Made by a program: the position numbers and the translations under genes | Source: the human T2T-CHM13v2.0 reference genome, Homo sapiens | Length of the DNA: 64,000 nucleotides | Assembly: GCA_009914755.4 (NCBI GenBank) | Contig: CP086569.2 | Span: 28,800,001 to 28,864,000 of the forward strand | Direction of reading: 5' to 3' | The notes under the pieces: model-generated | The model's database searches: none | Seen by the model: the letters and a program-made list of their open reading frames with translations, nothing else | Told to the model about the DNA's origin: nothing | Shown here: positions 1-30,194 of the stretch, one piece after another | Numbering within the stretch: position 1 is the first letter of the stretch | How the letters are laid out: each line of letters opens with the position of its first letter

Positions 1-364
1 TTCGATTGCATTCCATTCGATTGCATTCCATTCGAATCCTTTCCATTCCTTTCTATTCCATTCCATTTCATTCGATTTGATTCCATTCTGTTCTATTCCA
101 TTCAATTCTTTTTCATTCCATTCGAATCCTTTCTATTGCAGTCCATTCCATTCGAGTCCATTCCAATCCCTTCCATCCATTCCATTACAGTCCATTCCAA
201 TAGATTCCACTCCTTTGCCTTCCATTCGAATCCATTCCATTCTAGTCCATTCCATTTGAGTCAATTCCATTCCATTCCATTCTATTCCTTTCCAATCCAT
301 TCGATTCCATTCGATTCAATTCCATTTAATTCTCTTTCATTCTATTTTATTCCATGCCATTTGA
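1..364. repeat. Array 1 partial unit u0 (3' tail, B-type).
   Basis: The 77..259 peptide matches the B-type tail (IPFCS / NPFYC) seen at 4707 and 9461. Confidence 0.7.
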
Positions 365-399
365 TTGCATTGCATTCCATTCCGTTTGATTCCAGTCCA

Positions 400-412
400 T
401 TCAAGAAAGTTC
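400..412. promoter_or_regulatory. Perfect 3-unit heat-shock-element consensus TTCaaGAAagTTC (nTTCnnGAAnnTTCn), first copy. It recurs at the same offset in every HOR unit of both arrays (e.g. 2777, 5153, ... 32457).
   Basis: Read directly: ccattcaagaaagttccattcc. HSat3/SatIII arrays are established HSF1 targets, but function at this specific site is inference only. Confidence 0.3.
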
Positions 413-1405
413 CATTCCAGTCCATTGCTTTCGAGTCCATTCCATTCCACTGTAGTCTATTCCACTCCATTCCTTTCCATTCCATTCCATACTATTCCAT
501 TCCATTCCTTTGCATTCCGTTTCCAATCTATTCGAGTCCATTACATTCCAGTCCAATCCATTCGATTACATTCCTCTTGATTCCCTGCCAGTCGATTGCA
601 TTGCATACTAGACCATTCCAAAGGAGTCCATTCCATTCTATTTCAACACTTTCCATTCCACTCTGTTCGAGCCCATTCCATTCCAGTCCATTTAATTCAA
701 GGGCATTCCATTCCATTCCATTCCATTTCATATTATTCTATTCCATTCAATTCCATTCCAGATGATTCCGTTCCATTCTATACCATTGCTCTCTGTTCCA
801 TTCCATTCCATCTGTCTCCATTCCTTTCGTTTCGATTCCTTTCCATTCCATTCCATTACATTTGATCCTATTTTATTAAATAGCATTCTATTCGAGTGAT
901 TTCCATTCGAGTCCTTTCCATTCGATTCCATTCCATTCTATTCCATTCCTTTGGATTCCATTCCATTCCGTTCCGTTCACATCAATTCCTTGCGATTCCA
1001 TTACATTCGATTTCTTGCCATTCGATTCCATTCCTTTTGACTCCATTTCATTCGATTCCATTCCATTCCATTAATTTCCATTCCATTCGAGACCTTTCCA
1101 TTGCAGTCTTTTCCCTTCGAGTCCATTCCGTTCGATTCCCTTCCATTGGAGTCCGTACCAGTCTAGTCCATTCTATTCCAGTCCATTAGTTTCGACTCCA
1201 TTGCATTCGAGTGCATTCCATTTCGTGGCTGTCCATTTCATTCCGTTTGATGCCATTCCATACGATTCCATTCAATTCGAGACCATTCTATTCCTGTCCA
1301 TTCCTTGTGGTTCGATTCCATTTTACTCTAGTCCATTCCATTCCATTGAATTCCATTCGACTCTATTCCGTTCCATTCAATTCCATTCCATTCGATTCCA
1401 TTTTT

Positions 1406-1418
1406 TTCGAGAACCTTC
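1406..1418. promoter_or_regulatory. Second perfect HSE-consensus TTCgaGAAccTTC, once per array-1 HOR (tttttttcgagaaccttcc). In array 2 it is degraded to TTGgaGAAccTTC or GAActTTC.
   Basis: Read directly at 1401-1420, with periodic recurrence at +2377. A 2-unit GAAatTTC also occurs at 1870-1877. Confidence 0.25.
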
Positions 1419-2741
1419 CATTACACTCCCTTCCATTCCAGTGCATTCCATTCCAGTCTCTTCAGTTCTATTCCATTCCATTCGTTTCGATTCCATTCCA
1501 CTCCAGCCCATTCCATTCCATTCCATTCCTTTCTTTCCGTTTCATTAGATTCCATTGCATTCAATTCCATTCAATTCAATTCCGTGCTATTCAATTTGAT
1601 TCCTTTCCATTTAATTCCATAGCATTAGATTCCATTCCGTTCGATTCCATTCCATTTGATGCCATTCCATTTGATGCCATTCCGTGACATTCCATTCCAT
1701 TCGAGTCCATTCCGTTCCAATTCATTCCATTCCGTTTCATGAAATTCGAGTCCTTTCCAGTACATTTCATTCCAATCCCATCCAGTCCAATCTATTCCAT
1801 TCAATTCCTTTCCCTTCCATTTGATTATATTCCATTGATTTGATTCCATTCAGTTTGATTCCATTCCGTGAAATTTCGTTCCATTCTATTCCATTGCATT
1901 ACTTTCCATTCAATTCCATTCCATTTCATTTCAGTCCATTCGCTTCCTTTCCTTTCGATTCAATTCCATTTGATTCCACTCCATTCTATGCGATTTCATT
2001 CCAATCGATTCAATTCCATTCGATGACATTCCTTTCGTTTCCATTCCATTCGAGTCCATTCAATTTGAGCATTCGTGTCCATTCTATTCGAGTCCATTCC
2101 ATTACCGTCTATTCTATTCCCTTCCATTCCTGTTGATTCAATTTCATTCCGTTCCATTCGATTCCTTTCCATTCGATTCCATTCCTTTCCATTCCATTCC
2201 ATTCGTTCCCATTCCATGTGATTTCATTCCATTCCAGTCCATTATATTCGAGTCCACTCCACTCCATTCTATTACATTCAATTCCTCATGAGTCCGTTCC
2301 ATAACACTCCATGCATTTCGATTCCATTTCTTGCCAGTTTTCTTCCATTTTATTCCATTCCGTTCGATTCCATTCCATTCGATTGCATTCCATTCGATTG
2401 CATACCATTCGAATCCTTTCCATTCCTTTCTATTCCATTCCATTTCATTCGATTTGATTCCATTGTGTTCTATTCCATTCAATTCTTTTTCATTCCATTC
2501 GAATCGTTTCTATTGCAGTCCATTCCATTCGAGTCCATTCCAATCCCTTCCATCCATTCCATTACAGTCCATTCCAATAGATTCCACTCCTTTGCCTTCC
2601 ATTCGAATCCATTCCATTCTAGTCCATTCCATTTGAGTCAATTCCATTCCATTCCATTCTATTCCTTTCCAATCCATTCGATTCCATTCGATTCAATTCC
2701 ATTTGATTCTCTTTCATTCTATTTTATTCCATGCCATTTGA

Positions 2742-5117
2742 TTGCATTGCATTCCATTCCGTTTGATTCCAGTCCATTCAAGAAAGTTCCATTCCAGTCC
2801 ATTGCTTTCGAGTCCATTCCATTCCACTCTAGTCTATTCCACTCCATTCCTTTCCATTCCATTCCATACTATTCCATTCCATTCCTTTGCATTCCGTTTC
2901 CAATCTATTCGAGTCCATTACATTCCAGTCCAATCCATTCGATTACATTCCTCTTGATTCCCTGCCAGTCGATTGCATTGCATACTAGACCATTCCAAAG
3001 GAGTCCATTCCATTCTATTTCAACACTTTCCATTCCACTCTGTTCGAGTCCATTCCATTCCAGTCCATTTAATTCAAGGGCATTCCATTCCATTCCATTC
3101 CATTTCATATTATTCTATTCCATTCAATTCCATTCCAGATGATTCCATTCCATTCTATACCATTGCTCTCTGTTCCATTCCATTCCATCTGTCTCCATTC
3201 CTTTCGTTTCGATTCCTTTCCATTCCATTCCATTACATTTGATCCTATTTTATTAAATTGCATTCTATTCGAGTGATTTCCATTCGAGTCCTTTCCATTC
3301 GATTCCATTCCATTCTATTCCATTCCTTTGGATTCCATTCCATTCCGTTCCGTTCATATCAATTCCTTGCCATTCCATTACATTCGATTTCTTGCCATTC
3401 GATTCCATTCCTTTTGACTCCATTTCATTCGATTCCATTCCATTCCATTAATTTCCATTCCATTCGAGACATTTCCATTGCAGTCTTTCCCTTCGAGTCC
3501 ATTCCGTTCGATTCCCTTCCATTGGAGTCCGTACCAGTCTAGTCCATTCTATTCCAGTCCATTAGTTTCGACTCCATTGCATTCGAGTGCATTCCATTCC
3601 GTGGCTGTCCATTGCATTCCGTTTGATGTCATTCCATACGATTCCATTCAATTCGAGACCATTCTATTCCTGTCCATTCCTTGTGGTTCGATTCCATTTT
3701 ACTCTAGTCCATTCCATTCCATTGAATTCCATTCGACTCTATTCCGTTCCATTCAATTCCATTCCATTCGATTCCATTTTTTTCGAGAACCTTCCATTAC
3801 ACTCCCTTCCATTCCAGTGCATTCCATTCCAGTCTCTTCAGTTCTATTCCATTCCATTCGTTTCGATTCCATTCCACTCCAGCCCATTCCATTCCATTCC
3901 ATTCCTTTCTTTCCGTTTCATTAGATTCCATTGCATTCAATTCCATTCAATTCAATTCCGTGCTATTCAATTTGATTCCTTTCCATTTAATTCCATAGCA
4001 TTAGATTCCATTCCGTTCGATTCCATTCCATTTGATGCCATTCCATTTGATGCCATTCCGTGACATTCCATTCCATTCGAGTCCATTCCGTTCCAATTCA
4101 TTCCATTCCGTTTCATGAAATTCGAGTCCTTTCCAGTACATTTCATTCCAATCCCATCCAATCCAATCTATTCCATTCAATTCCTTTCCCTTCCATTTGA
4201 TTATATTCCATTGATTTGATTCCATTCAGTTTGATTCCATTCCGTGAAATTTCGTTCCATTCTATTCCATTGCATTACTTTCCATTCAATTCCATTCCAT
4301 TTCATTTCTGTCCATTCGCTTCCTTTCCTTTCGATTCAATTCCATTTGATTCCACTCCATTCTATGCGATTTCATTGCAATCGATTCAATTCCATTCGAT
4401 GACATTCCTTTCGTTTCCATTCCATTAGAGTCCATTCAATTTGAGCATTCGTGTCCATTCTATTCGAGTCCATTCCATTACCGTCTATTCTATTCCCTTC
4501 CATTCCTGTTGATTCAATTTCATTCCCTTCCATTCGATTCCTTTCCATTCGATTCCATTCCTTTCCATTCCATTCCATTCGTTCCCATTCCATGTGATTT
4601 CATTCCATTCCAGTGCATTATATTCGAGTCCACTCCACTCCATTCTATTACATTCAATTCCTCATGAGTCCGTTCCATAACACTCCCTGCATTTCGATTC
4701 CATTTCTTGCCAGTTTTCTTCCATTTTATTGCATTCCGTTCGATTCCATTCCATTCGATTGCATTCCATTCGATTGCATTCCATTCGAATCCTTTCCATT
4801 CCTTTCTATTCCATTCCATTTCATTCGATTTGATTCCATTCTGTTCTATTCCATTCAATTCTTTTTCATTCCATTCGAATCCTTTCTATTGCAGTCCATT
4901 CCATTCGAGTCCATTCCAATCCCTTCCATCCATTCCATTACAGTCCATTCCAATAGATTCCACTCCTTTGCCTTCCATTCGAATCCATTCCATTCTAGTC
5001 CATTCCATTTGAGTCAATTCCATTCCATTCCATTCTATTCCTTTCCAATCCATTCGATTCCATTCGATTCAATTCCATTTAATTCTCTTTCATTCTATTT
5101 TATTCCATGCCATTTGA
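2742..5117. repeat. Array 1 HOR unit u2 (2376 bp, subtype B).
   Basis: 'IGWDWN' peptide at 4001, MDGIGMKCTGK at 3967, 70-aa truncated MIPFSL (cattagagtcc stop variant at ~4431), 301-aa MHYIRVHS peptide (gtgcat variant) at 4613, Q/N-type MNGIEQNGIK. Confidence 0.8.
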
Positions 5118-7494
5118 TTGCATTGCATTCCATTCCGTTTGATTCCAGTCCATTCAAGAAAGTTCCATTCCAGTCCATTGCTTTCGAGTCCATTCCATTC
5201 CACTCTAGTCTATTCCACTCCATTCCTTTCCATTCCATTCCATACTATTCCATTCCATTCCTTTGCATTCCGTTTCCAATCTATTCGAGTCCATTACATT
5301 CCAGTCCAATCCATTCGATTACATTCCTCTTGATTCCCTGCCAGTCGATTGCATTGCATACTAGACCATTCCAAAGGAGTCCATTCCATTCTATTTCAAC
5401 ACTTTCCATTCCACTCTGTTCGAGTCCATTCCATTCCAGTCCATTTAATTCAAGGGCATTCCATTCCATTCCATTCCATTTCATATTATTCTATTCCATT
5501 CAATTCCATTCCAGATGATTCCATTCCATTCTATACCATTGCTCTCTGTTCCATTCCATTCCATCTGTCTCCATTCCTTTCGTTTCGATTCCTTTCCATT
5601 CCATTCCATTACATTTGATCCTATTTTATTAAATTGCATTCTATTCGAGTGATTTCCATTCGAGTCCTTTCCATTCGATTCCATTCCATTCTATTCCATT
5701 CCTTTGGATTCCATTCCATTCCGTTCCGTTCATATCAATTCCTTGCCATTCCATTACATTCGATTTCTTGCCATTCGATTCCATTCCTTTTGACTCCATT
5801 TCATTCGATTCCATTCCATTCCATTAATTTCCATTCCATTCGAGACCTTTCCATTGCAGTCTTTTCCCTTCGAGTCCATTCCGTTCGATTCCCTTCCATT
5901 GGAGTCCGTACCAGTCGAGTCCATTCTATTCCAGTCCATTAGTTTCGACTCCATTGCATTCGAGTGCATTCCATTCCGTGGCTGTCCATTGCATTCCGTT
6001 TGATGCCATTCCATATGATTCCATTCAATTCGAGACCATTCTATTCCTGTCCATTCCTTGTGGTTCGATTCCATTTTACTCTAGTCCATTCCATTCCATT
6101 GAATTCCATTCGACTCTATTCCGTTCCATTCAATTCCATTCCATTCGATTCCATTTTTTTCGAGAACCTTCCATTACACTCCCTTCCATTCCAGTGCATT
6201 CCATTCCAGTCTCTTCAGTTCTATTCCATTCCATTCGTTTCGATTCCATTCCACTCCAGCCCATTCCATTCCATTCCATTCCTTTCTTTCCGTTTCATTA
6301 GATTCCATTGCATTCAATTCCATTCAATTCAATTCCGTGCTATTCAATTTGATTCCTTTCCATTTAATTCCATAGCATTAGATTCCATTCCGTTCGATTC
6401 CATTCCATTTGATGCCATTCCATTTGATGCCATTCCGTGACATTCCATTCCATTCGAGTCCATTCCGTTCCAATTCATTCCATTCCGTTTCATGAAATTC
6501 GAGTCCTTTCCAGTACATTTCATTCCAATCCCATCCAGTCCAATCTATTCCATTCAATTCCTTTCCCTTCCATTTGATTATATTCCATTGATTTGATTCC
6601 ATTCAGTTTGATTCCATTCCGTGAAATTTCGTTCCATTCTATTCCATTGCATTACTTTCCATTCAATTCCATTCCATTTCATTTCAGTCCATTCGCTTCC
6701 TTTCCTTTCGATTCAATTCCATTTGATTCCACTCCATTCTATGCGATTTCATTCCAATCGATTCAATTCCATTCGATGACATTCCTTTCGTTTCCATTCC
6801 ATTCGAGTCCATTCAATTTGAGCATTCGTGTCCATTCTATTCGAGTCCATTCCATTACCGTCTATTCTATTCCCTTCCATTCCTGTTGATTCAATTTCAT
6901 TCCCTTCCATTCAATTCCTTTCCATTCGATTCCATTCCTTTCCATTCCATTCCATTCGTTCCCATTCCATGTGATTTCATTCCATTCCAGTCCATTATAT
7001 TCGAGTCCACTCCACTCCATTCTATTACATTCAATTCCTCATGAGTCCGTTCCATAACACTCCATGCATTTCGATTCCATTTCTTGCCAGTTTTCTTCCA
7101 TTTTATTCCATTCCGTTCGATTCCATTCCATTCGATTGCATTCCATTCGATTGCATACCATTCGAATCCTTTCCATTCCTTTCTATTCCATTCCATTTCA
7201 TTCGATTTGATTCCATTGTGTTCTATTCCATTCAATTCTTTTTCATTCCATTCGAATCGTTTTTATTGCAGTCCATTCCATTCGAGTCCATTCCAATCCC
7301 TTCCATCCATTCCATTACAGTCCATTCCAATAGATTCCACTCCTTTGCCTTCCATTCGAATCCATTCCATTCTAGTCCATTCCATTTGAGTCAATTCCAT
7401 TCCATTCCATTCTATTCCTTTCCAATCCATTCGATTCCATTCGATTCAATTCCATTTGATTCTCTTTCATTCTATTTTATTCCATGCCATTTGA
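5118..7494. repeat. Array 1 HOR unit u3 (2377 bp, subtype A1).
   Basis: Same markers as u1: TGWDWN peptide at 6378, 98-aa peptide at 6593, H/Y type at 6897. Confidence 0.8.
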
Positions 7495-9871
7495 TTGCAT
7501 TGCATTCCATTCCGTTTGATTCCAGTCCATTCAAGAAAGTTCCATTCCAGTCCATTGCTTTCGAGTCCATTCCATTCCACTCTAGTCTATTCCACTCCAT
7601 TCCTTTCCATTCCATTCCATACTATTCCATTCCATTCCTTTGCATTCCGTTTCCAATCTATTCGAGTCCATTACATTCCAGTCCAATCCATTCGATTACA
7701 TTCCTCTTGATTCCCTGCCAGTCGATTGCATTGCATACTAGACCATTCCAAAGGAGTCCATTCCATTCTATTTCAACACTTTCCATTCCACTCTGTTCGA
7801 GTCCATTCCATTCCAGTCCATTTAATTCAAGGGCATTCCATTCCATTCCATTCCATTTCATATTATTCTATTCCATTCAATTCCATTCCAGATGATTCCA
7901 TTCCATTCTATACCATTGCTCTCTGTTCCATTCCATTCCATCTGTCTCCATTCCTTTCGTTTCGATTCCTTTCCATTCCATTCCATTACATTTGATCCTA
8001 TTTTATTAAATTGCATTCTATTCGAGTGATTTCCATTCGAGTCCTTTCCATTCGATTCCATTCCATTCTATTCCATTCCTTTGGATTCCATTCCATTCCG
8101 TTCCGTTCATATCAATTCCTTGCCATTCCATTACATTCGATTTCTTGCCATTCGATTCCATTCCTTTTGACTCCATTTCATTCGATTCCATTCCATTCCA
8201 TTAATTTCCATTCCATTCGAGACCTTTCCATTGCAGTCTTTTCCCTTCGAGTCCATTCCGTTCGATTCCCTTCCATTGGAGTCCGTACCAGTCTAGTCCA
8301 TTCTATTCCAGTCCATTAGTTTCGACTCCATTGCATTCGAGTGCATTCCATTCCGTGGCTGTCCATTGCATTCCGTTTGATGCCATTCCATATGATTCCA
8401 TTCAATTCGAGACCATTCTATTCCTGTCCATTCCTTGTGGTTCGATTCCATTTTACTCTAGTCCATTCCATTCCATTGAATTCCATTCGACTCTATTCCG
8501 TTCCATTCAATTCCATTCCATTCGATTCCATTTTTTTCGAGAACCTTCCATTACACTCCCTTCCATTCCAGTGCATTCCATTCCAGTCTCTTCAGTTCTA
8601 TTCCATTCCATTCGTTTCGATTCCATTCCACTCCAGCCCATTCCATTCCATTCCATTCCTTTCTTTCCGTTTCATTAGATTCCATTGCATTCAATTCCAT
8701 TCAAATCAATTCCGTGCTATTCAATTTGATTCCTTTCCATTTAATTCCATAGCATTAGATTCCATTCCGTTCGATTCCATTCCATTTGATGCCATTCCAT
8801 TTGATGCCATTCCGTGACATTCCATTCCATTCGAGTCCATTCCGTTCCAATTCATTCCATTCCGTTTCATGAAATTCGAGTCCTTTCCAGTACATTTCAT
8901 TCCAATCCCATCCAATCCAATCTATTCCATTCAATTCCTTTCCCTTCCATTTGATTATATTCCATTGATTTGATTCCATTCAGTTTGATTCCATTCCGTG
9001 AAATTTCGTTCCATTCTATTCCATTGCATTACTTTCCATTCAATTCCATTCCATTTCATTTCTGTCCATTCGCTTCCTTTCCTTTCGATTCAATTCCATT
9101 TGATTCCACTCCATTCTATGCGATTTCATTGCAATCGATTCAATTCCATTCGATGACATTCCTTTCGTTTCCATTCCATTAGAGTCCATTCAATTTGAGC
9201 ATTCGTGTCCATTCTATTCGAGTCCATTCCATTACCGTCTATTCTATTCCCTTCCATTCCTGTTGATTCAATTTCATTCCCTTCCATTCGATTCCTTTCC
9301 ATTCGATTCCATTCCTTTCCATTCCATTCCATTCGTTCCCATTCCATGTGATTTCATTCCATTCCAGTGCATTATATTCGAGTCCACTCCACTCCATTCT
9401 ATTACATTCAATTCCTCATGAGTCCGTTACATAACACTCCCTGCATTTCGATTCCATTTCTTGCCAGTTTTCTTCCAGTTTATTGCATTCCGTTCGATTC
9501 CATTCCATTCGATTGCATTCCATTCGATTGCATTCCATTCGAATCCTTTCCATTCCTTTCTATTCCATTCCATTTCATTCGATTTGATTCCATTCTGTTC
9601 TATTCCATTCAATTCTTTTTCATTCCATTCGAATCCTTTCTATTGCAGTCCATTCCATTCGAGTCCATTCCAATCCCTTCCATCCATTCCATTACAGTCC
9701 ATTCCAATAGATTCCACTCCTTTGCCTTCCATTCGAATCCATTCCATTCTAGTCCATTCCATTTGAGTCAATTCCATTCCATTCCATTCTATTCCTTTCC
9801 AATCCATTCGATTCCATTCGATTCAATTCCATTTAATTCTCTTTCATTCTATTTTATTCCATGCCATTTGA
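7495..9871. repeat. Array 1 HOR unit u4 (2377 bp, subtype B').
   Basis: B markers (8721, 8755, 8970 70-aa peptide, 9367 301-aa peptide) plus private variants (SPLH, LPVY in the 9367 peptide). Confidence 0.8.
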
Positions 9872-12248
9872 TTGCATTGCATTCCATTCCGTTTGATTCC
9901 AGTCCATTCAAGAAAGTTCCATTCCAGTCCATTGCTTTCGAGTCCATTCCATTCCACTCTAGTCTATTCCACTCCATTCCTTTCCATTCCATTCCATACT
10001 ATTCCATTCCATTCCTTTGCATTCCGTTTCCAATCTACTCGAGTCCATTACATTCCAGTCCAATCCATTCGATTACATTCCTCTTGATTCCCTGCCAGTC
10101 GATTGCATTGCATACTAGACCATTCCAAAGGAGTCCATTCCATTCTATTTCAACACTTTCCATTCCACTCTGTTCGAGTCCATTCCATTCCAGTCCATTT
10201 AATTCAAGGGCATTCCATTCCATTCCATTCCATTTCATATTATTCTATTCCATTCAATTCCATTCCAGATGATTCCATTCCATTCTATACCATTGCTCTC
10301 TGTTCCATTCCATTCCATCTGTCTCCATTCCTTTCGTTTCGATTCCTTTCCATTCCATTCCATTACATTTGATCCTATTTTATTAAATTGCATTCTATTC
10401 GAGTGATTTCCATTCGAGTCCTTTCCATTCGATTCCATTCCATTCTATTCCATTCCTTTGGATTCCATTCCATTCCGTTCCGTTCACATCAATTCCTTGC
10501 GATTCCATTACATTCGATTTCTTGCCATTCGATTCCATTCCTTTTGACTCCATTTCATTCGATTCCATTCCATTCCATTAATTTCCATTCCATTCGAGAC
10601 CTTTCCATTGCAGTCTTTTCCCTTCGAGTCCATTCCGTTCGATTCCCTTCCATTGGAGTCCGTACCAGTCGAGTCCATTCTATTCCAGTCCATTAGTTTC
10701 GACTCCATTGCATTCGAGTGCATTCCATTCCGTGGCTGTCCATTCCATTCCGTTTGATGCCATTCCATACGATTCCATTCAATTCGAGACCATTCTATTC
10801 CTGTCCATTCCTTGTGGTTCGATTCCATTTTACTCTAGTCCATTCCATTCCATTGAATTCCATTCGACTCTATTCCGTTCCATTCAATTCCATTCCATTC
10901 GATTCCATTTTTTTCGAGAACCTTCCATTACACTCCCTTCCATTCCAGTGCATTCCATTCCAGTCTATTCAGTTCTATTCCATTCCATTCGTTTCGATTC
11001 CATTCCTCTCCAGCCCATTCCATTCCATTCCATTCCTTTCTTTCCGTTTCATTAGATTCCATTGCATTCAATTCCATTCAATTCAATTCCGTGCTATTCA
11101 ATTTGATTCCTTTCCATTTAATTCCATAGCATTAGATTCCATTCCGTTCGATTCCATTCCATTTGATGCCATTCCATTTGATGTCATTCCGTGACATTCC
11201 ATTCCATTCGAGTCCATTCCGTTCCAATTCATTCCATTCCGTTTCATGAAATTCGAGTCCTCTCCAGTACATTTCATTCCAATCCCAACCAATCCAATCT
11301 ATTCCATTCAATTCCTTTCCCTTCCATTTGATTATATTCCATTGATTTGATTCCATTCAGTTTGATTCCATTCCGTGAAATTTCGTTCCATTCTATTCCA
11401 TTGCATTACTTTCCATTCAATTCCATTCCATTTCATTTCTGTCCATTCGCTTCCTTTCCTTTCGATTCAATTCCATTTGATTCCACTCCATTCTATGCGA
11501 TTTCATTGCAATCAATTCAATTCCATTCGATGACATTCCTTTCGTTTCCATTCCATTCGAGTCCATTCAATTTGAGCATTCGTATCCATTCTATTCGAGT
11601 CCATTCCATTACCGTCTATTCTATTCCCTTCCATTCCTGTTGATTCAATTTCATTCCCTTCCATTCAATTCCTTTCCATTCGATTCCATTCCTTTCCATT
11701 CCATTCCATTCGTTCCCATTCCATGTGATTTCATTCCATTCCAGTGCATTATATTTGAGTCCACTCCACTCCATTCTATTACATTCAATTCCTCATGAGT
11801 CCGTTCCATAACACTCCCTGCATTTCGATTCCATTTCTTGCCAGTTTTCTTCCATTTTATTGCATTCCGTTCGATTCCATTCCATTCGATTGCATTCCAT
11901 TCGATTGCATTCCATTCGAATCCTTTCCATTCCTTTCTATTCCATTCCATTTCATTCGATTTGATTCCATTCTGTTCTATTCCATTCAATTCTTTTTCAT
12001 TCCATTCGAATCCTTTCTATTGCAGTCCATTCCATTCGAGTCCATTCCAATCCCTTCCATCCATTCCATTACACTCCATTCCAATAGATTCCACTCCTTT
12101 GCCTTCCATTCGAATCCATTCCATTCTAGTCCATTCCATTTGAGTCAATTCCATTCCATTCCATTCTATTCCTTTCCAATCCATTCGATTCCATTCGATT
12201 CAATTCCATTTAATTCTCTTTCATTCTATTTTATTCCATGCCATTTGA
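9872..12248. repeat. Array 1 HOR unit u5 (2377 bp, subtype C, an A/B hybrid).
   Basis: MVGIGMKCTGE (11098) and MYWRG (11132) variants, 98-aa peptide (A-like) with a Q/N-type tail (B-like). Private CpG transitions: atcgatt -> atcaatt at ~11515 and tattcgag -> tatttgag at ~11753. Confidence 0.8.
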
Positions 12249-14624
12249 TTGCATTGCATTCCATTCCGTTTGATTCCAGTCCATTCAAGAAAGTTCCATT
12301 CCAGTCCATTGCTTTCGAGTCCATTCCATTCCACTGTAGTCTATTCCACTCCATTCCTTTCCATTCCATTCCATACTATTCCATTCCATTCCTTTGCATT
12401 CCGTTTCCAATCTATTCGAGTCCATTACATTCCAGTCCAATCCATTCGATTACATTCCTCTTGATTCCCTGCCAGTCGATTGCATTGCATACTAGACCAT
12501 TCCAAAGGAGTCCATTCCATTCTATTTCAACACTTTCCATTCCACTCTGTTCGAGTCCATTCCATTCCAGTCCATTTAATTCAAGGGCATTCCATTCCAT
12601 TCCATTCCATTTCATATTATTCTATTCCATTCAATTCCATTCCAGATGATTCCGTTCCATTCTATACCATTGCTCTCTGTTCCATTCCATTCCATCTGTC
12701 TCCATTCCTTTCGTTTCGATTCCTTTCCATTCCATTCCATTACATTTGATCCTATTTTATTAAATTGCATTCTATTCGAGTGATTTCCATTCGAGTCCTT
12801 TCCATTCGATTCCATTCCATTCTATTCCATTCCTTTGGATTCCATTCCATTCCGTTCCGTTCACATCAATTCCTTGCGATTCCATTACATTCGATTTCTT
12901 GCCATTCGATTCCATTCCTTTTGACTCCATTTCATTCGATTCCATTCCATTCCATTAATTTCCATTCCATTCGAGACCTTTCCATTGCAGTCATTTCCCT
13001 TCGAGTCCATTCCGTTCGATTCCCTTCCATTGGAGTCCGTACCAGTCGAGTCCATTCTATTCCAGTCCATTAGTTTCGACTCCATTGCATTCGAGTGCAT
13101 TCCATTCCGTGGCTGTCCATTCCATTCCGTTTGATGCCATTCCATACGATTCCATTCAATTCGAGACCATTCTATTCCTGTCCATTCCTTGTGGTTCGAT
13201 TCCATTTTACTCTAGTCCATTCCATTCCATTGAATTCCATTGGACTCTATTCCGTTCCATTCAATTCCATTCCATTCGACTCCATTTTTTTCGAGAACCT
13301 TCCATTACACTCCCTTCCATTCCAGTGCATTCCATTCCAGTCTCTTCAGTTCTATTCCATTCCATTCGTTTCGATTCCATTCCACTCCAGCCCATTCCAT
13401 TCCATTCCATTCCTTTCTTTCCGTTTCATTAGATTCCATTGCATTCAATTCCATTCAATTCAATTCCGTGCTATTCAATTTGATTCCTTTCCATTTAATT
13501 CCATAGCATTAGATTCCATTCCGTTCGATTCCATTCCATTTGATGCCATTCCATTTGATGCCATTCCGTGACATTCCATTCCATTCGAGTCCATTCCATC
13601 CAATTCATTCCATTCCGTTTCATGAAATTCGAGTCCTTTCCAGTACATTTCATTCCAATCCCATCCAGTCCAATCTATTCCATTCAATTCCTTTCCCTTC
13701 CATTTGATTATATTCCATTGATTTGATTCCATTCAGTTTGATTCCATTCCGTGAAATTTCGTTCCATTCTATTCCATTGCATTACTTTCCATTCAATTCC
13801 ATTCCATTTCATTTCAGTCCATTCGCTTCCTTTCCTTTCGATTCAATTCCATTTGATTCCACTCCATTCTATGCGATTTCATTCCAATCGATTCAATTCC
13901 ATTCAATGACATTCCTTTCCTTTCCATTCCATTCGAGTCCATTCAATTTGAGCATTCGTGTCCATTCTATTCGAGTCCATTCCATTACCGTCTATTCTAT
14001 TCCCTTCCATTCCTGTTGATTCAATTTCATTCCCTTCCATTCAATTCCTTTCCATTCGATTCCATTCCTTTCCATTCCATTCCATTCGTTCCCATTCCAT
14101 GTGATTTCATTCCATTCCAGTCCATTATATTCGAGTCCACTCCACTCCATTCTATTACATTCAATTCCTCATGAGTCCGTTCCATAACACTCCATGCATT
14201 TCGATTCCATTTCTTGCCAGTTTTCTTCCATTTTATTCCATTCCGTTCGATTCCATTCCATTCGATTGCATTCCATTCGATTGCATACCATTCGAATCCT
14301 TTCCATTCCTTTCTATTCCATTCCATTTCATTCGATTTGATTCCATTGTGTTCTATTCCATTCAATTCTTTTTCATTCCATTCGAATCGTTTCTATTGCA
14401 GTCCATTCCATTCGAGTCCATTCCAATCCCTTCCATCCATTCCATTACAGTCCATTCCAATAGATTCCACTCCTTTGCCTTCCATTCGAATCCATTCCAT
14501 TCTAGTCCATTCCATTTGAGTCAATTCCATTCCATTCCCTTCTATTCCTTTCCAATCCATTCGATTCCATTCGATTCAATTCCATTTGATTCTCTTTCAT
14601 TCTATTTTATTCCATGCCATTTGA
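12249..14624. repeat. Array 1 HOR unit u6 (2376 bp, subtype A2).
   Basis: A markers, plus a 1-bp indel (ccattccatccaattc at ~13590) that fuses two minus-strand peptides into the 85-aa ORF at 13475, and a new 88-aa peptide at 13240. Confidence 0.8.
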
Positions 14625-17001
14625 TTGCATTGCATTCCATTCCGTTTGATTCCAGTCCATTCAAGAAAGTTCCATTCCAGTCCATTGCTTTCGAGTACAT
14701 TCCATTCCACTCTAGTCTATTCCACTCCATTCCTTTCCATTCCATTCCATACTATTCCATTCCATTCCTTTGCATTCCGTTTCCAATCTATTCGAGTCCA
14801 TTACATTCCAGTCCAATCCATTCGATTACATTCCCCTTGATTCCCTGCCAGTCGATTGCATTGCATACTAGACCATTCCAAAGGAGTCCATTCCATTCTA
14901 TTTCAACACTTTCCATTCCACTCTGTTCGAGTCCATTCCATTCCAGTCCATTTAATTCAAGGGCATTCCATTCCATTCCCTTCCATTTTATATTATTCTA
15001 TTCCATTCAATTCCATTCCAGATGATTCCATTCCATTCTATACCATTGCTCTCTGTTCCATTCCATTCCATCTGTCTCCATTCCTTTCGTTTCGATTCCT
15101 TTCCATTCCATTCCATTACATTTGATCCTATTTTATTAAATTGCATTCTATTCGAGTGATTTCCATTCGAGTCCTTTCCATTCGATTCCATTCCATTCTA
15201 TTCCATTCCTTTGGATTCCATTCCATTCCGTTCCGTTCATATCAATTCCTTGCCATTCCATTACATTCGATTTCTTGCCATTCGATTCCATTCCTTTTGA
15301 CTCCATTTCATTCGATTCCATTCCATTCCATTAATTTCCATTCCATTCGAGACCTTTCCATTGCAGTCTTTTCCCTTCGAGTCCATTCCGTTCGATTCCC
15401 TTCCATTGGAGTCCGTACCAGTCTAGTCCATTCTATTCCAGTCCATTAGTTTCGACTCCATTGCATTCGAGTGCATTCCATTCCGTGGCTGTCCATTGCA
15501 TTCCGTTTGATGCCATTCCATATGATTCCATTCAATTCGAGACCATTCTATTCCTGTCCATTCCTTGTGGTTCGATTCCATTTTACTCTAGTCCATTCCA
15601 TTCCATTGAATTCCATTCGACTCTATTCCGTTCCATTCAATTCCATTCCATTCGATTCCATTTTTTTCGAGAACCTTCCATTACACTCCCTTCCATTCCA
15701 GTGCATTCCATTCCAGTCTCTTCAGTTCTATTCCATTCCATTCGTTTCGATTCCATTCCACTCCAGCCCATTCCATTCCATTCCATTCCTTTCTTTCCGT
15801 TTCATTAGATTCCATTGCATTCAATTCCATTCAATTCAATTCCGTGCTATTCAATTTGATTCCTTTCCATTTAATTCCATAGCATTAGATTCCATTCCGT
15901 TCGATTCCATTCCATTTGATGCCATTCCATTTGATGCCATTCCGTGACATTCCATTCCATTCGAGTCCATTCCGTTCCAATTCATTCCATTCCGTTTCAT
16001 GAAATTCGATTCCTTTCCAGTACATTTCATTCCAATCCCATCCAATCCAATCTATTCCATTCAATTCCTTTCCCTTCCATTTGATTATATTCCATTGATT
16101 TGATTCCATTCAGTTTGATTCCATTCCGTGAAATTTCGTTCCATTCTATTCCATTGCATTACTTTCCATTCAATTCCATTCCATTTCATTTCTGTCCATT
16201 CGCTTCCTTTCCTTTCGATTCAATTCCATTTGATTCCACTCCATTCTATGCGATTTCATTGCAATCGATTCAATTCCATTCGATGACATTCCTTTCGTTT
16301 CCATTCCATTAGAGTCCATTCAATTTGAGCATTCGTGTCCATTCTATTCGAGTCCATTCCATTACCGTCTATTCTATTCCCTTCCATTCCTGTTGATTCA
16401 ATTTCATTCCCTTCCATTCGATTCCTTTCCATTCGATTCCATTCCTTTCCATTCCATTCCATTCGTTCCCATTCCATGTGATTTCATTCCATTCCAGTGC
16501 ATTATATTCGAGTCCACTCCACTCCATTCTATTACATTCAATTCCTCATGAGTCCGTTACATAACACTCCCTGCATTTCGATTCCATTTCTTGCCAGTTT
16601 TCTTCCATTTTATTGCATTCCGTTCGATTCCATTCCATTCGATTGCATTCCATTCGATTGCATTCCATTCGAATCCTTTCCATTCCTTTCTATTCCATTC
16701 CATTTCATTCGATTTGATTCCATTCTGTTCTATTCCATTCAATTCTTTTTCATTCCATTCGAATCCTTTCTATTGCAGTCCATTCCATTCGAGTCCATTC
16801 CAATCCCTTCCATCCATTCCATTACACTCCATTCCAATAGATTCCACTCCTTTGCCTTCCATTCGAATCCATTCCATTCTAGTCCATTCCATTTGAGTCA
16901 ATTCCATTCCATTCCATTCTATTCCTTTCCAATCCATTCGATTCCATTCGATTCAATTCCATTTAATTCTCTTTCATTCTATTTTATTCCATGCCATTTG
17001 A
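14625..17001. repeat. Array 1 HOR unit u7 (2377 bp, subtype B').
   Basis: B markers at 15851, 15885, 16100 and 16497 (SPLH variant). The tail carries the SIPLHSIPID variant. Confidence 0.8.
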
Positions 17002-19377
17002 TTGCATTGCATTCCATTCCGTTTGATTCCAGTCCATTCAAGAAAGTTCCATTCCAGTCCATTGCTTTCGAGTCCATTCCATTCCACTGTAGTCTATTCC
17101 ACTCCATTCCTTTCCATTCCATTCCATACTATTCCATTCCATTCCTTTGCATTCCGTTTCCAATCTATTCGAGTCCATTACATTCCAGTCCAATCCATTC
17201 GATTACATTCCTCTTGATTCCCTGCCAGTCGATTGCATTGCATACTAGACCATTCCAAACGAGTCCATTCCATTCTATTTCAACACTTTCCATTCCACTC
17301 TGTTCGAGTCCATTCCATTCCAGTCCATTTAATTCAAGGGCATTCCATTCCATTCCATTCCATTTCATATTATTCTATTCCATTCAATTCCATTCCAGAT
17401 GATTCCGTTCCATTCTATACCATTGCTCTCTGTTCCATTCCATTCCATCTGTCTCCATTCCTTTCGTTTCAATTCCTTTCCATTCCATTCCATTACATTT
17501 GATCCTATTTTATTAAATTGCATTCTATTCGAGTGATTTCCATTCGAGTCCTTTCCATTCGATTCCATTCCATTCTATTCCATTCCTTTGGATTCCATTC
17601 CATTCCGTTCCGTTCACATCAATTCCTTGCGATTCCATTACATTCGATTTCTTGCCATTCGATTCCATTCCTTTTGACTCCATTTCATTCGATTCCATTC
17701 CATTCCATTAATTTCCATTCCATTCGAGACCTTTCCATTGCAGTCTTTTCCCTTCGAGTCCATTCCGTTCGATTCCCTTCCATTGGAGTCCGTACCAGTC
17801 GAGTCCATTCTATTCCAGTCCATTAGTTTCGACTCCATTGCATTCGAGTGCATTCCATTCCGTGGCTGTCCATTCCATTCCGTTTGATGCCATTCCATAC
17901 GATTCCATTCAATTCGAGACCATTCTATTCCTGTCCATTCCTTGTGGTTCGATTCCATTTTACTCTAGTCCATTCCATTCCATTGAATTCCATTCGACTC
18001 TATTCCGTTCCATTCAATTCCATTCCATTCGACTCCATTTTTTTCGAGAACCTTCCATTACACTCCCTTCCATTCCAGTGCATTCCATTCCAGTCTCTTC
18101 AGTTCTATTCCATTCCATTCGTTTCGATTCCATTCCACTCCAGCCCATTCCATTCCATTCCATTCCTTTCTTTCCGTTTCATTAGATTCCATTGCATTCA
18201 ATTCCATTCAATTCAATTCCGTGCTATTCAATTTGATTCCTTTCCATTTAATTCCATAGCATTAGATTCCATTCCGTTCGATTCCATTCCATTTGATGCC
18301 ATTCCATTTGATGCCATTCCGTGACATTCCATTCCATTCGAGTCCATTCCATCCAATTCATTCCATTCCGTTTCATGAAATTCGAGTCCTTTCCAGTACA
18401 TTTCATTCCAATCCCATCCAGTCCAATCTATTCCATTCAATTCCTTTCCCTTCCATTTGATTATATTCCATTGATTTGATTCCATTCAGTTTGATTCCAT
18501 TCCGTGAAATTTCGTTCCATTCTATTCCATTGCATTACTTTCCATTCAATTCCATTCCATTTCATTTCAGTCCATTCGCTTCCTTTCCTTTCGATTCAAT
18601 TCCATTTGATTCCACTCCATTCTATGCGATTTCATTCCAATCGATTCAATTCCATTCAATGACATTCCTTTCGTTTCCATTCCATTCGAGTCCATTCAAT
18701 TTGAGCATTCGTGTCCATTCTATTCGAGTCCATTCCATTACCGTCTATTCTATTCCCTTCCATTCCTGTTGATTCAATTTCATTCCCTTCCATTCAATTC
18801 CTTTCCATTCGATTCCATTCCTTTCCATTCCATTCCATTCGTTCCCATTCCATGTGATTTCATTCCATTCCAGTCCATTATATTCGAGTCCACTCCACTC
18901 CATTCTATTACATTCAATTCCTCATGAGTCCGTTCCATAACACTCCATGCATTTCGATTCCATTTCTTGCCAGTTTTCTTCCATTTTATTCCATTCCGTT
19001 CGATTCCATTCCATTCGATTGCATTCCATTCGATTGCATACCATTCGAATCCTTTCCATTCCTTTCTATTCCATTCCATTTCATTCGATTTGATTCCATT
19101 CTGTTCTATTCCATTCAATTCTTTTTCATTCCATTCGAATCCTTTCTATTGCAGTCCATTCCATTCGAGTCCATTCCAATCCCTTCCATCCATTCCATTA
19201 CAGTCCATTCCAATAGATTCCACTCCTTTGCCTTCCATTCGAATCCATTCCATTCTAGTCCATTCCATTTGAGTCAATTCCATTCCATTCCATTCTATTC
19301 CTTTCCAATCCATTCGATTCCATTCGATTCAATTCCATTTGATTCTCTTTCATTCTATTTTATTCCATGCCATTTGA
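17002..19377. repeat. Array 1 HOR unit u8 (2376 bp, subtype A2).
   Basis: 85-aa fused peptide at 18228, 98-aa peptide at 18476, hybrid Q/Y tail peptide at 18780. Confidence 0.8.
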
Positions 19378-28889: not shown

Positions 28890-29670
28890 TTGCATTGCAT
28901 TCCATTCCGTTTGATTCCAGTCCATTCAAGAAAGTTCCATTCCAGTCCATTGCTTTCGAGTCCATTCCATTCCACTCTAGTCTATTCCACTCCATTCCTT
29001 TCCATTCCATTCCATACTATTCCATTCCATTCCTTTGCATTCCGTTTCCAATCTATTCGAGTCCATTACATTCCAGTCCAATCCATTCGATTACATTCCT
29101 CTTGATTCCCTGCCAGTCGATTGCATTGCATACTAGACCATTCCAAAGGAGTCCATTCCATTCTATTTCAACACTTTCCATTCCACTCTGTTCGAGTCCA
29201 TTCCATTCCAGTCCATTTAATTCAAGGGCATTCCATTCCATTCCATTCCATTTCATATTATTCTATTCCATTCAATTCCATTCCAGATGATTCCATTCCA
29301 TTCTATACCATTGCTCTCTGTTCCATTCCATTCCATCTGTCTCCATTCCTTTCGTTTCGATTCCTTTCCATTCCATTCCATTACATTTGATCCTATTTTA
29401 TTAAATTGCATTCTATTCGAGTGATTTCCATTCGAGTCCTTTCCATTCGATTCCATTCCATTCTATTCCATTCCTTTGGATTCCATTCCATTCCGTTCCG
29501 TTCACATCAATTCCTTGCGATTCCATTACATTCGATTTCTTGCCATTCGATTCCATTCCTTTTGACTCCATTTCATTCGATTCCATTCCATTCCATTAAT
29601 TTCCATTCCATTCGAGACCTTTCCATTGCAGTCTTTTCCCTTCGAGTCCATTCCGTTCGATTCCCTTCCA

Positions 29671-29685
29671 TTCGATTCCATTCCA
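29671..29685. repeat. 15-bp (three-pentamer) tandem duplication 'ttcgattccattcca', diagnostic of all array-2 units.
   Basis: Array 1 reads cgattcccttccattggagtcc. Array 2 reads cgattcccttcca|ttcgattccattcca|ttggagtcc. This gives the 107-aa versus 102-aa peptide difference (extra IRFHS) in every 3.5-kb unit. Confidence 0.8.
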
Positions 29686-30194
29686 TTGGAGTCCGTACCA
29701 GTCGAGTCCATTCTATTCCAGTCCATTAGTTTCGACTCCATTGCATTCGAGTGCATTCCATTCCGTGGCTGTCCATTCCATTCCGTTTGATGCCATTCCA
29801 TACGATTCCATTCAATTCGAGACCATTCTATTCCTGTCCATTCCTTGTGGTTCGATTCCATTTCACTATAGTCCATTCCATTCCATTGAATTCCATACGA
29901 CTCTATTCCGTTCCATTCAATTCCATTCCTTTCGATTCCATTTTTTTGGAGAACCTTCCATTACACTCCCTTCCATTCCAGTGCATTCCATTCCAGTCTC
30001 TTCAGTTCGATTCCATTCCATTCGTTTCAATTCCATTCCATTCCAGCCCATTCCATTCCATTCCATTCCTTTCCTTTCCGTTTCATTAGATTCCATTGCA
30101 TTCGATTCCATTCAATTCAATTCCGTGCTATTCAATTTGATTCATTTCCATTTAATTCCATTGCATTAGATTCCATTCCGTTCGATTCCATTCC

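What the first reader, a model, noticed from the sequence alone, without database searches (positions are those of the whole stretch)
400..1418. Perfect heat-shock elements (TTCnnGAAnnTTC) recur once or twice per HOR copy
Two canonical three-unit HSEs (400-412 TTCaaGAAagTTC and 1406-1418 TTCgaGAAccTTC) plus a GAAatTTC dimer (1870-1877) sit at fixed offsets in every array-1 unit. The first is conserved in all array-2 units. That gives more than 35 consensus HSEs in 64 kb. SatIII arrays are the established HSF1-bound loci that form nuclear stress bodies and are transcribed into G-rich (GGAAU)n SATIII RNA, which would be the minus strand here. Whether discrete HSEs at unit-specific positions, rather than the bulk GGAAT repeat, nucleate HSF1 binding is an open and testable question. 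Caveat: in an (ATTCC)n background, TTCnnTTCnnTTC is the default, so an HSE is only one trinucleotide change away at every position.
Basis: partly seen in the sequence, partly recalled or inferred. Interest (0 to 1): 0.5.

Follow-up and report, generated by a model that had tools for sequence, protein, structure and literature searches.

The report
Known heat-shock elements in DYZ1 satellite
The repeated heat-shock-factor motifs are really there, but they are three sites copied passively along the human Y-chromosome DYZ1 satellite; they were published as HSF1 targets in 2021 and are no more frequent or better conserved than the repeat's own pentamer structure predicts.

Summary
The window holds 47 perfect TTCnnGAAnnTTC sites, all in one orientation.

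The window is human Yq12 DYZ1 (HSat3A6). Array 2, with a 3534-bp unit, matches the published DYZ1 clone excerpt at 96.5-98.5%. Array 1, with a 2377-bp unit, is the same unit minus an 1125-bp segment.

Penin et al. 2021 (PMC7889540) already reported perfect HSEs in the DYZ1 unit. They also showed HSF1 ChIP enrichment beside one of them, and that one is site C.

The 47 copies are three sites multiplied by repeat amplification. A pentamer-shuffle null gives 0.7-1.0 per unit against 2 observed (P = 0.12-0.25). Conservation is at background level, and site B is disabled in 7 of 10 array-2 units.

An HSE is exactly what inverting one TTC or ATTCC produces in (ATTCC)n.

The sites are plausible HSF1 trimer sites. 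The finding is already known, and selection is not shown. HSF1 mapping phased with the repeat unit on the Y is still untested.

The parts
1..30194 (+). Array 1: 2377-bp DYZ1-derived higher-order repeat of about 12.7 units. It lacks the 1125-bp segment that carries site C and the HaeIII site.
   Evidence: Site A spacing is 2376-2381 bp. The 12 units have 99.1% mean pairwise identity. The consensus equals the array-2 consensus minus positions 1270-2394 and two 15-bp blocks, with shared parts 97.5-99.2% identical. There is no GGCC. The switch to array-2 type lies inside the unit that starts at 28925.
28925..64000 (+). Array 2: DYZ1 (HSat3A6) higher-order repeat with a 3534-bp modal unit and 10 units of several subtypes (3303-3549 bp).
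   Evidence: Spacings. The 400-nt DYZ1 excerpt of PMC7889540 Fig. S4 matches all 10 units at 96.5-98.5%. The Yq12 primers hit. There is one HaeIII site per unit in 8 of 10 units. Unit subtypes.
30195..31319 (+). First copy of the 1125-bp segment present only in array-2 units. It holds site C, the published ChIP-qPCR amplicon and the HaeIII site. Later copies start at about 33729, 37246, 40789, 44338, 47872, 51405, 54939, 58471 and 61774.
400..412 (+). HSE site A, TTCAAGAAAGTTC, first of 22 copies. The others start at 2777, 5153, 7530, 9907, 12284, 14660, 17037, 19413, 21790, 24167, 26548, 28925, 32459, 35992, 39519, 43068, 46602, 50135, 53669, 57202 and 60505.
   Evidence: Intact in 19 of 21 external DYZ1 copies.
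1406..1418 (+). HSE site B, TTCGAGAACCTTC, first of 15 copies. The others start at 3782, 6159, 8536, 10913, 13290, 15666, 18043, 20419, 22796, 25178, 27554, 37012, 58222 and 61525.
   Evidence: Intact in 28 of 36 external DYZ1 copies.
29946..29958 (+). Disabled site B, TTGGAGAACCTTC (first TTC changed to TTG), first of 7. The others are at 33480, 40540, 44089, 47623, 51156 and 54690. Three of them also carry a CC-to-CT change in the spacer.
30226..30238 (+). HSE site C, TTCCAGAACATTC, first of 10 copies. The others start at 33760, 37277, 40820, 44369, 47903, 51436, 54970, 58502 and 61805. It is the HSE framed in PMC7889540 Fig. S4, and it is exactly (ATTCC)n with one TTC inverted.
   Evidence: Intact in 34 of 37 external DYZ1 copies.
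30454..30620 (+). Region bounded by the published Yq12 HSF1 ChIP-qPCR primers, first copy. It begins 216 bp downstream of site C.
   Evidence: The reverse primer matches exactly at 30454-30475 and in 6 further units. The forward primer matches at 30597-30620 on the minus strand and once in each of the 10 units, with 1-3 mismatches.
1870..1877 (+). GAAATTTC two-unit half-site, first of 22 copies, one per unit. It is not extended to a third unit.

Best explanation
The window is human Y-chromosome long-arm heterochromatin: DYZ1, also called HSat3A6. It consists of two adjacent variants of one higher-order repeat.

The ancestral ~3.5-kb unit carries three 13-bp inverted-triplet heat-shock elements, A, B and C. 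Tandem amplification of the unit copied them passively, so the 47 copies represent at most three origins.

Each element is a stretch of the ordinary CATTC pentamer array in which one in-register TTC has become GAA. In a satellite whose default is TTC every 5 bp, that single flip automatically yields TTC-GAA-TTC. The simplest route is a micro-inversion of 3, 5 or 7 bp. Site C is letter for letter the 3-bp inversion product.

Once present, each element is a geometrically correct site for one HSF1 trimer. With about 0.7-0.85 such sites per kb over megabases, Yq12 offers a very large HSF1 platform. On heat shock, HSF1 binds there, forms a nuclear stress body and drives transcription of the G-rich strand.

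Shown here:
- the identity of the locus
- the three site classes and their copy numbers
- the inversion equivalence
- the lack of excess frequency or conservation

Taken from the literature:
- HSF1 foci on Yq12
- ChIP-qPCR enrichment next to site C
- SATIII transcription from the Y

Inferred:
- that the discrete elements, rather than the surrounding head-to-tail GGAAT bulk, are what HSF1 trimers actually occupy
- that the elements arose by micro-inversion
For: Identity of the locus:
- The published DYZ1 excerpt matches all 10 array-2 units at 96.5-98.5% without gaps in most.
- The Y-specific primers are present.
- There is one HaeIII site per unit.
- The unit length of 3534 bp compares with the 3564 to about 3569 bp reported.
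- Array 1 equals array 2 minus 1125 bp.

Three sites only.

Published support:
- PMC7889540 reports 'four perfect HSEs' in the 3564-bp unit X06228.1.
- It shows that HSF1 foci require Yq12.
- It shows HSF1 ChIP-qPCR enrichment beside the framed HSE GAATGTTCTGGAA, which is the reverse complement of site C.
- On T2T-CHM13, HSF1 motifs lie in sub-regions of HSat3 arrays and heat-shock HSF1 ChIP-seq is enriched there, whereas TEAD motifs and signal are uniform.

Passive origin:
- The pentamer-shuffle null gives P = 0.12 and 0.25.
- Markov models of order 5 or higher reproduce the count.
- Conservation is at background level.
- Site B is lost in 7 of 10 local units.

Inversion route:
- Simulated inversion of 3, 5 or 7 bp in (ATTCC)n gives TTCCAGAACATTC (site C exactly), TTCCGGAATATTC or TTCTGGAATGTTC.
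- The 5-bp product occurs verbatim in L159. A one-substitution derivative occurs in seven non-DYZ1 HSat3 contigs in a conserved context.
- All 47 sites have the one-flip orientation and none has the two-flip orientation GAA-TTC-GAA.
Against: - In-register nnGAA pentamers are somewhat more common than simple models predict: 3 of 690 against 0.19 under independent positions (P about 1e-3). Allowing for the 2.9-fold clustering of multi-substitution pentamers brings this to about 0.01-0.02.
- The rate is also 3-4 times that in a sample of other HSat2/3 sequences: 0.33-0.42% against 0.10%, and 0.67-0.85 HSE per kb against 0.165. Some enrichment or selection cannot be excluded.
- The published ChIP used roughly 500-bp fragments and an amplicon more than 200 bp from the HSE. 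It therefore cannot separate binding at the HSE from binding to the bulk repeat.
- HSF1 DNA-binding domains have been crystallised on head-to-tail SatIII repeats (cited in PMC8379338), so the bulk repeat is not inert.
- Sites A and B need extra changes in spacer positions to fit the inversion route. B could instead derive from the common TTCGAGACC variant.
Confidence: 0.8

Rival explanations
1. The HSEs are maintained by selection as the functional nucleation sites of Y-linked nuclear stress bodies. Their number per unit would then be tuned rather than incidental.
For: - In-register GAA pentamers number 3 against 0.19-0.54 expected.
- HSE density in DYZ1 is about 4 times that in other HSat2/3 sampled.
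- An unrelated HSat3 family also carries a well-kept HSE, TTCCGGAAGATTC, in 7 contigs.
- In HT1080 cells Yq12 out-competes 9q12 for HSF1, and the authors suggest that more HSEs on Yq12 could explain this.
- HSF1 ChIP-seq follows motif density on T2T.
Against: - There is no excess conservation within the window.
- There is none in 21-37 external DYZ1 copies, where A and C sit at the 75th-78th percentile.
- Site B is knocked out by one base in 7 of 10 local units, and those units were still amplified.
- The pentamer-shuffle null is not rejected.
- There are only three events at most. The flanks show a weak hint that they may be paralogous (z = 0.3-2.2), which would reduce the number of independent events further.
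- Array 1 lost site C along with 1125 bp and was still amplified more than 12-fold.
Confidence: 0.2
2. HSF1 is recruited by the bulk head-to-tail GGAAT array through many weak, cooperative or condensate-driven contacts. The three inverted elements per unit would contribute little.
For: - The window has 4080 exact ATTCC pentamers against 47 HSEs.
- Co-crystal structures exist of HSF1/HSF2 DNA-binding domains on head-to-tail SatIII repeats.
- The published ChIP cannot resolve the HSE from the bulk repeat.
Against: [quoted passage not shown] GGAATG-reading TEAD factors cover the arrays evenly.
- HSF1 forms primary foci only on some HSat3 blocks (9q12, Yq12), although GGAAT bulk is present on many chromosomes.
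- From established knowledge of HSF trimers, they need inverted nGAAn units for high-affinity binding.
Confidence: 0.15
3. The motifs are sequence coincidences with no occupancy in vivo. Yq12 heterochromatin would bind HSF1 through other sequences or indirectly.
For: - The count is compatible with pentamer-aware nulls.
- Conservation is at background level.
Against: - HSF1 foci require Yq12, and purified HSF1 binds pericentric satellite regions on chromosome spreads.
- ChIP-qPCR is positive within one fragment length of site C.
- The motifs meet the full 3-unit consensus.
Confidence: 0.05

Closest known systems
HSEs of the DYZ1 (Yq12, HSat3A6) unit described by Penin et al. 2021 (PMC7889540; clone X06228.1 of Nakahori et al. 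1986)
   Same: It is the same satellite, at 96.5-98.5% identity over the published 400-nt excerpt. The same primers match. The same HSE is present: the published GAATGTTCTGGAA is the reverse complement of site C. The proposed mechanism is also the same, namely HSF1 binding HSEs interspersed in Y-specific SATIII.
   Different: - That paper counts four perfect HSEs in its 3564-bp clone.
- Units here have two (A and C, modal 3534-bp type), three (A, B and C, variant units), or two (A and B, 2377-bp variant).
- The 2377-bp variant, which lacks site C and the ChIP amplicon, is not mentioned in the papers read.
- I could not read X06228.1 itself, so the fourth site is unidentified.
HSF1-bound HSat3 of 9q12 and other autosomal blocks (nuclear stress bodies), and the HSF1-motif sub-regions mapped on T2T-CHM13 (bioRxiv 10.1101/2024.10.22.616524)
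   Same: It has a GGAAT-based satellite with embedded HSF1 motifs, and HSF1 ChIP-seq follows motif density. Non-DYZ1 HSat3 contigs sampled here also carry one recurrent perfect HSE, TTCCGGAAGATTC.
   Different: - It is a different HSat3 subfamily with a different HSE sequence.
- The sampled HSE density is lower, at 0.165 per kb against 0.7-0.85.
- The T2T study used female MCF7 cells, so the Y arrays were not assayed.
Promoter HSEs of heat-shock genes (for example HSPA1A)
   Same: They share the consensus nTTCnnGAAnnTTCn with three contiguous inverted units.
   Different: - Promoter HSEs are single-copy, lie upstream of a defined start site and are conserved across species.
- Here the element is repeated every 2.4-3.5 kb in heterochromatin with no defined promoter.
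- It shows no conservation above background.

Membership tests
DYZ1 / HSat3A6 (human Yq12 satellite) | Degenerate CATTC/ATTCC pentamer composition on one strand | tested here: met
   There are 4080 ATTCC and 0 GGAAT on the + strand. Tandem Repeats Finder covers 1-63985 with pentamer-multiple periods.
DYZ1 / HSat3A6 (human Yq12 satellite) | Higher-order repeat of about 3.5-3.6 kb | tested here: met
   Array 2 has a 3534-bp modal unit. Published values are 3564 bp, about 3.6 kb and a modal HaeIII fragment of 3569 bp. Array 1 (2377 bp) does not meet this and is a deletion derivative.
DYZ1 / HSat3A6 (human Yq12 satellite) | One HaeIII (GGCC) site per unit | tested here: met
   There are 8 GGCC sites, one in each of 8 of the 10 array-2 units and none in array 1.
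DYZ1 / HSat3A6 (human Yq12 satellite) | Sequence identity to the reference DYZ1 clone, and a match to Y-specific primers | tested here: met
   Identity is 96.5-98.5% over the 400 nt published in PMC7889540 Fig. S4, in all 10 array-2 units. The reverse primer is exact in 7 units and the forward primer has 1-3 mismatches in 10 units. The full clone X06228.1 was not available.
DYZ1 / HSat3A6 (human Yq12 satellite) | Location on Yq12, alternating with DYZ2 blocks | not testable with these tools
   The window contains no DYZ2 or flanking unique sequence, and no human assembly is searchable here.
Canonical heat-shock element (HSF1 trimer site) | At least three contiguous inverted nGAAn units at 5-bp spacing | tested here: met
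   There are 47 exact TTCnnGAAnnTTC sites and none longer than three units.
Canonical heat-shock element (HSF1 trimer site) | Occupied by HSF1 on heat shock | not testable with these tools
   Evidence comes from the literature only. HSF1 ChIP-qPCR is positive with an amplicon about 220 bp from site C, using roughly 500-bp fragments. That resolution is too low to assign binding to the element.
Canonical heat-shock element (HSF1 trimer site) | Frequency above what the sequence background gives | tested here: inconclusive
   - Pentamer shuffle: 2 against 0.70 (P = 0.12) and 2 against 0.97 (P = 0.25).
- Markov order 1-3 expects 0.05-0.07, and order 5-7 expects 1.7-2.5.
- In-register GAA pentamers: 3 against 0.19-0.54 (P = 0.001-0.02).
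Canonical heat-shock element (HSF1 trimer site) | Conservation above the neighbouring sequence (purifying selection) | tested here: not met
   - 79% (array 1) and 63% (array 2) of all matched 13-nt windows are intact in every copy.
- In external DYZ1 copies A is intact in 19 of 21 and C in 34 of 37, the 75th-78th percentile.
- B is disabled in 7 of 10 array-2 units.

The most novel reading that the evidence does not exclude
The discrete, repeat-phased HSEs, not the GGAAT bulk, set how much HSF1 a Yq12 block can load. DYZ1 unit variants differ in HSE content: A+B per 2.38 kb, A+C per 3.53 kb, or A+B+C per 3.3-3.5 kb. Blocks and Y haplotypes would therefore differ in HSF1 affinity. That could explain why some male cells nucleate stress bodies on the Y rather than on chromosome 9. 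The elements themselves would be born in one step by micro-inversion of a single pentamer, a general route by which GGAAT satellites acquire HSF1 sites.
Probability: 0.3. Interest if true: 0.45.

Novelty: already known. Interest (0 to 1): 0.2.

Why it matters
If the discrete elements are the real HSF1 landing sites, the megabase DYZ1 blocks are a titratable HSF1 sink. Its capacity could then be read directly from the sequence as HSE count per unit times the number of units. It would vary between men along with Yq12 length and unit subtype.

The core facts are already in the literature: there are HSEs in DYZ1, HSF1 binds there, and motif density predicts ChIP signal in HSat3.

This analysis adds four things:
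- exact coordinates and subtype-specific HSE content for this stretch
- a demonstration that frequency and conservation do not by themselves argue for selection
- the observation that an HSE is the automatic product of a one-pentamer inversion in this satellite
- a reminder that shuffle-based enrichment in a higher-order repeat must be computed on the collapsed unit with the pentamer register kept

Tried and rejected
- **Dinucleotide shuffle of the whole window** (47 against 1.5). Rejected as a null because it ignores copy amplification and the 5-bp register.
- **Independent-position substitution model for in-register GAA** (P about 1e-3). Down-weighted because all three-substitution pentamers are 2.9-fold over-represented (8 against 2.8). 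A single inversion event also explains GAA better than three point changes.
- **Within-window conservation test**. It has no power, because most 13-mers are intact in all copies.
- **Paralogy of the three sites, judged from their flanks.**
  - Ungapped ±100 bp looked suggestive (94th-99th percentile).
  - Gapped scoring at ±50, ±100 and ±150 bp gave z of only 0.3-2.2.
  - The question is left unresolved.
- **Search for the 2377-bp variant's deletion junction in external contigs**. No match of 95% or better was found. The metagenome sample had been selected with a primer that lies inside the deleted segment, so this says little.
- **Contig L135 (2360 bp)** looked as if it might be a collapsed 2377-bp unit. 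It aligns colinearly with array-2 consensus positions 1070-3399, so it is not.
- **Long BLAST alignment to test a 21.2-kb super-period**. It was uninformative because of register slippage. Unit-by-unit identities give only a hint.
- **Literature searches.** No paper maps HSF1 at high resolution on a complete Y.

Full report
**What is in the window.** The whole 64 kb is degenerate (ATTCC)n on the + strand: 4080 exact ATTCC and no GGAAT, with Tandem Repeats Finder arrays spanning 1-63985.

Using the motif TTCAAGAAAGTTC as a landmark, the window splits into two arrays.
- Array 1 has a 2377-bp period. Its 12 complete units have 99.1% mean pairwise identity.
- Array 2 has a 3534-bp modal period. 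It has 10 units, two of them variant (3303 and 3527 bp).

A global alignment of the two consensus units shows they are the same sequence, 97.5-99.2% identical. The exception is that the long unit has an extra 1125-bp segment (consensus 1270-2394) and two 15-bp blocks. The switch between arrays is sharp and lies inside the unit starting at 28925.

TTCnnGAAnnTTC occurs 47 times, always in the same orientation. There are three site classes.
- A, TTCAAGAAAGTTC: 22 copies, one in every unit.
- B, TTCGAGAACCTTC: 15 copies, in all 12 array-1 units but only 3 of 10 array-2 units.
- C, TTCCAGAACATTC: 10 copies, one per array-2 unit inside the 1125-bp extra segment.

In the other seven array-2 units, site B reads TTGGAG..., so its first TTC is destroyed. 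The GAAATTTC dimer is present once per unit, 22 times in all, and is never part of a longer element. There is no four-unit HSE.

**What the locus is.** Penin et al. 2021 (PMC7889540) searched the 3564-bp Yq12 clone X06228.1 (DYZ1) for HSEs and reported four perfect ones. They then showed HSF1 ChIP-qPCR enrichment with Y-specific primers placed beside one of them.

- Their reverse primer matches the window exactly in seven array-2 units.
- Their forward primer matches in all ten, with 1-3 mismatches.
- The 400-nt DYZ1 excerpt in their Fig. S4 aligns to every array-2 unit at 96.5-98.5%.
- The HSE they frame, GAATGTTCTGGAA, is the reverse complement of site C.
- Array 2 has the classical single HaeIII site per unit in 8 of its 10 units, and array 1 has none.

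DYZ1 is the Y-specific subfamily HSat3A6, with a unit of about 3.5-3.6 kb and a modal HaeIII fragment of 3569 bp. The window is therefore human Yq12 DYZ1. Array 1 is a 2.38-kb deletion derivative that I did not find described in the papers read.

**Is it more than chance?** The 47 copies are not independent. They are three sites multiplied along with the unit, so tests were run on the consensus units.

- Low-order Markov models expect 0.05-0.07 HSE per 3.5-kb unit. The tool's dinucleotide shuffle expects 1.5 for the whole window.
  - For the 2377-bp unit this gives 0.70 expected against 2 observed (P = 0.12).
  - For the 3534-bp unit it gives 0.97 against 2 (P = 0.25).
  - If the ancestral three sites are counted, P(>=3) = 0.04.
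- Markov models of order 5-7 give 1.7-2.5.
- The count is in effect fixed by the number of in-register nnGAA pentamers, which is three in 690. About 57% of pentamers end in TTC, so both flanks are TTC about one time in three by default.
- Three in-register GAA pentamers exceed an independent-position model (0.19 expected, P about 1e-3). All triple-substitution pentamers are over-represented (8 against 2.8), which brings the corrected P to about 0.01-0.02.

**Conservation.** Within the window the test has no power. 79% of all matched 13-nt windows in array 1 and 63% in array 2 are intact in every copy.

To obtain independent copies I scanned metagenome contigs for the DYZ1 primer. This returned 45 human-contaminant loci, which gave 56 aligned segments totalling 111 kb.
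- Site A is intact in 19 of 21.
- Site B, in its TTCGAG form, is intact in 28 of 36.
- Site C is intact in 34 of 37.
- A and C rank at the 78th and 75th percentile of all windows.

This is ordinary conservation. It also shows that loss of B is a local feature of this stretch.

**Comparison with other HSat2/3.** A scan of bacterial and archaeal assemblies for (ATTCC)5 returned 120 loci, mostly human contamination.
- In 60 kb of non-DYZ1 satellite there are 10 perfect HSEs (0.165 per kb), and in-register GAA makes up 0.10% of pentamers.
- DYZ1-like contigs give 0.67 per kb and 0.33%.
- The window gives 0.73 per kb.

DYZ1 is therefore about four-fold richer in HSEs, in line with Penin et al.'s suggestion that Yq12 may carry more HSEs than 9q12. 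The sample is small and not random.

Seven of the ten non-DYZ1 HSEs are the same 13-mer, TTCCGGAAGATTC, in a conserved context next to the classical HSat3 CCCCTGCACTCGGGTTGATT block. At least one other HSat3 family therefore also has a unit-fixed HSE.

**How the elements arise.** HSat3 is TTC every 5 bp in direct orientation. An HSE is the same spacing in alternating orientation, so flipping one unit is enough.

Simulation on perfect (ATTCC)n gives the following.
- A 3-bp inversion gives TTCCAGAACATTC, which is site C exactly.
- A 5-bp inversion gives TTCCGGAATATTC. This is present verbatim in L159 and is one substitution from the recurrent autosomal HSE.
- A 7-bp inversion gives TTCTGGAATGTTC.

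All 47 sites have the one-flip orientation and none the two-flip orientation. A single micro-inversion is more parsimonious than three coordinated substitutions. It also explains why GAA tops the triple-change class. This is inference. Sites A and B need additional spacer changes, and B could come from the common TTCGAGACC variant.

Whether A, B and C are paralogues is unresolved, with flank similarity at z = 0.3-2.2.

**How it most likely works.** Each element has the geometry for one HSF1 trimer.

The literature shows the following.
- HSF1 foci form on the Y only when Yq12 is present.
- HSF1 is enriched by ChIP within a fragment length of site C.
- Y SATIII is transcribed on heat shock.
- On T2T-CHM13, HSF1 motifs lie in sub-regions of HSat3 arrays and heat-shock ChIP-seq tracks them, unlike the uniformly distributed TEAD sites.

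That study used female cells, so the Y was not assayed. Against exclusive use of the discrete elements, HSF DNA-binding domains have been crystallised on head-to-tail SatIII repeats, and the published ChIP cannot resolve 13 bp.

My best reading is that A, B and C are incidental products of the satellite's own mutational grammar. They were amplified passively, and they nevertheless serve as the high-affinity HSF1 sites of Yq12. Selection for them is not demonstrated.

**Novelty and verdict.** The only untested piece is repeat-phased, high-resolution HSF1 occupancy on a complete Y. No paper found here has done this. Interest is low, and the finding is classed as already known.

Noticed in passing
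window 1-30194 (array 1), junction inside unit 28925-32458: This is a 2377-bp DYZ1 unit variant, amplified at least 12-fold at 99.1% identity. It lacks 1125 bp of the standard unit, including the HaeIII site, HSE site C and the published Yq12 ChIP/PCR amplicon. HaeIII digests and those primers would therefore not detect this block. The switch to standard units is abrupt: the first ~9 of 43 diagnostic sites are array-1 type and the rest array-2 type. I did not find this variant described in the papers read.
   Followed up: partly
window 28925-64000: Array 2 is a mosaic of unit subtypes.
- Unit 53669 is closest to unit 32459 (99.72%).
- Unit 57202 is closest to 60505 (99.42%), then to 35992 (98.72%).
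- Intact site B recurs 21,210 bp apart (37012 and 58222).

Together this hints at a super-period of about 21.2 kb, or six units. Unit 57202-60504 carries a 220-bp deletion (consensus 1814-2033).
   Followed up: partly
L050, L067, L077, L090, L093, L110, L137 (TTCCGGAAGATTC); L159 pos 5 (TTCCGGAATATTC); L134 (TTCCAGAAGATTC): A different, non-DYZ1 HSat3 family, recognisable by its CCCCTGCACTCGGGTTGATT block, carries its own recurrent perfect HSE in a conserved context. Its palindromic TTCCGGAA core is what a 5-bp inversion of one ATTCC produces. L134 shows the CpG-decayed form. This may be the 9q12-type HSE, but the chromosomal origin could not be checked.
   Followed up: partly
window, whole length: Strand purity is absolute: 4080 ATTCC and 0 GGAAT on the + strand. 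All 47 HSEs are in the single-flip orientation TTC-GAA-TTC and none is GAA-TTC-GAA.
   Followed up: yes
L048 (Actinomadura cremea JCM 3308), L068, L108, L123, L135, L142, L144, L150 and many of L046-L165; L001-L045: Human Y-chromosome DYZ1 and other HSat2/3 sequences sit as contaminant contigs in many bacterial and archaeal genome assemblies and metagenome assemblies. L048 is essentially one full DYZ1 unit with sites A, B and C.
   Followed up: partly
L062, L098, L106, L163 (Kitasatospora sp. KL5), L100 (Streptomyces sp. HUAS TT7), L088 (Nocardia sp. FBN12): There are long runs of perfect (ATTCC)n, with 7 to 20 (ATTCC)5 matches per locus, inside records labelled complete bacterial chromosomes, at several places in one genome. 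They could be genuine bacterial pentanucleotide arrays or assembly or contamination artefacts.
   Followed up: no
window 24167-26547: One array-1 unit is 2381 bp, so it has a 4-5-bp insertion. In its last third it carries array-2-type alleles at about 6 of the last 15 or so diagnostic sites. This suggests a short conversion tract between the two unit types.
   Followed up: no
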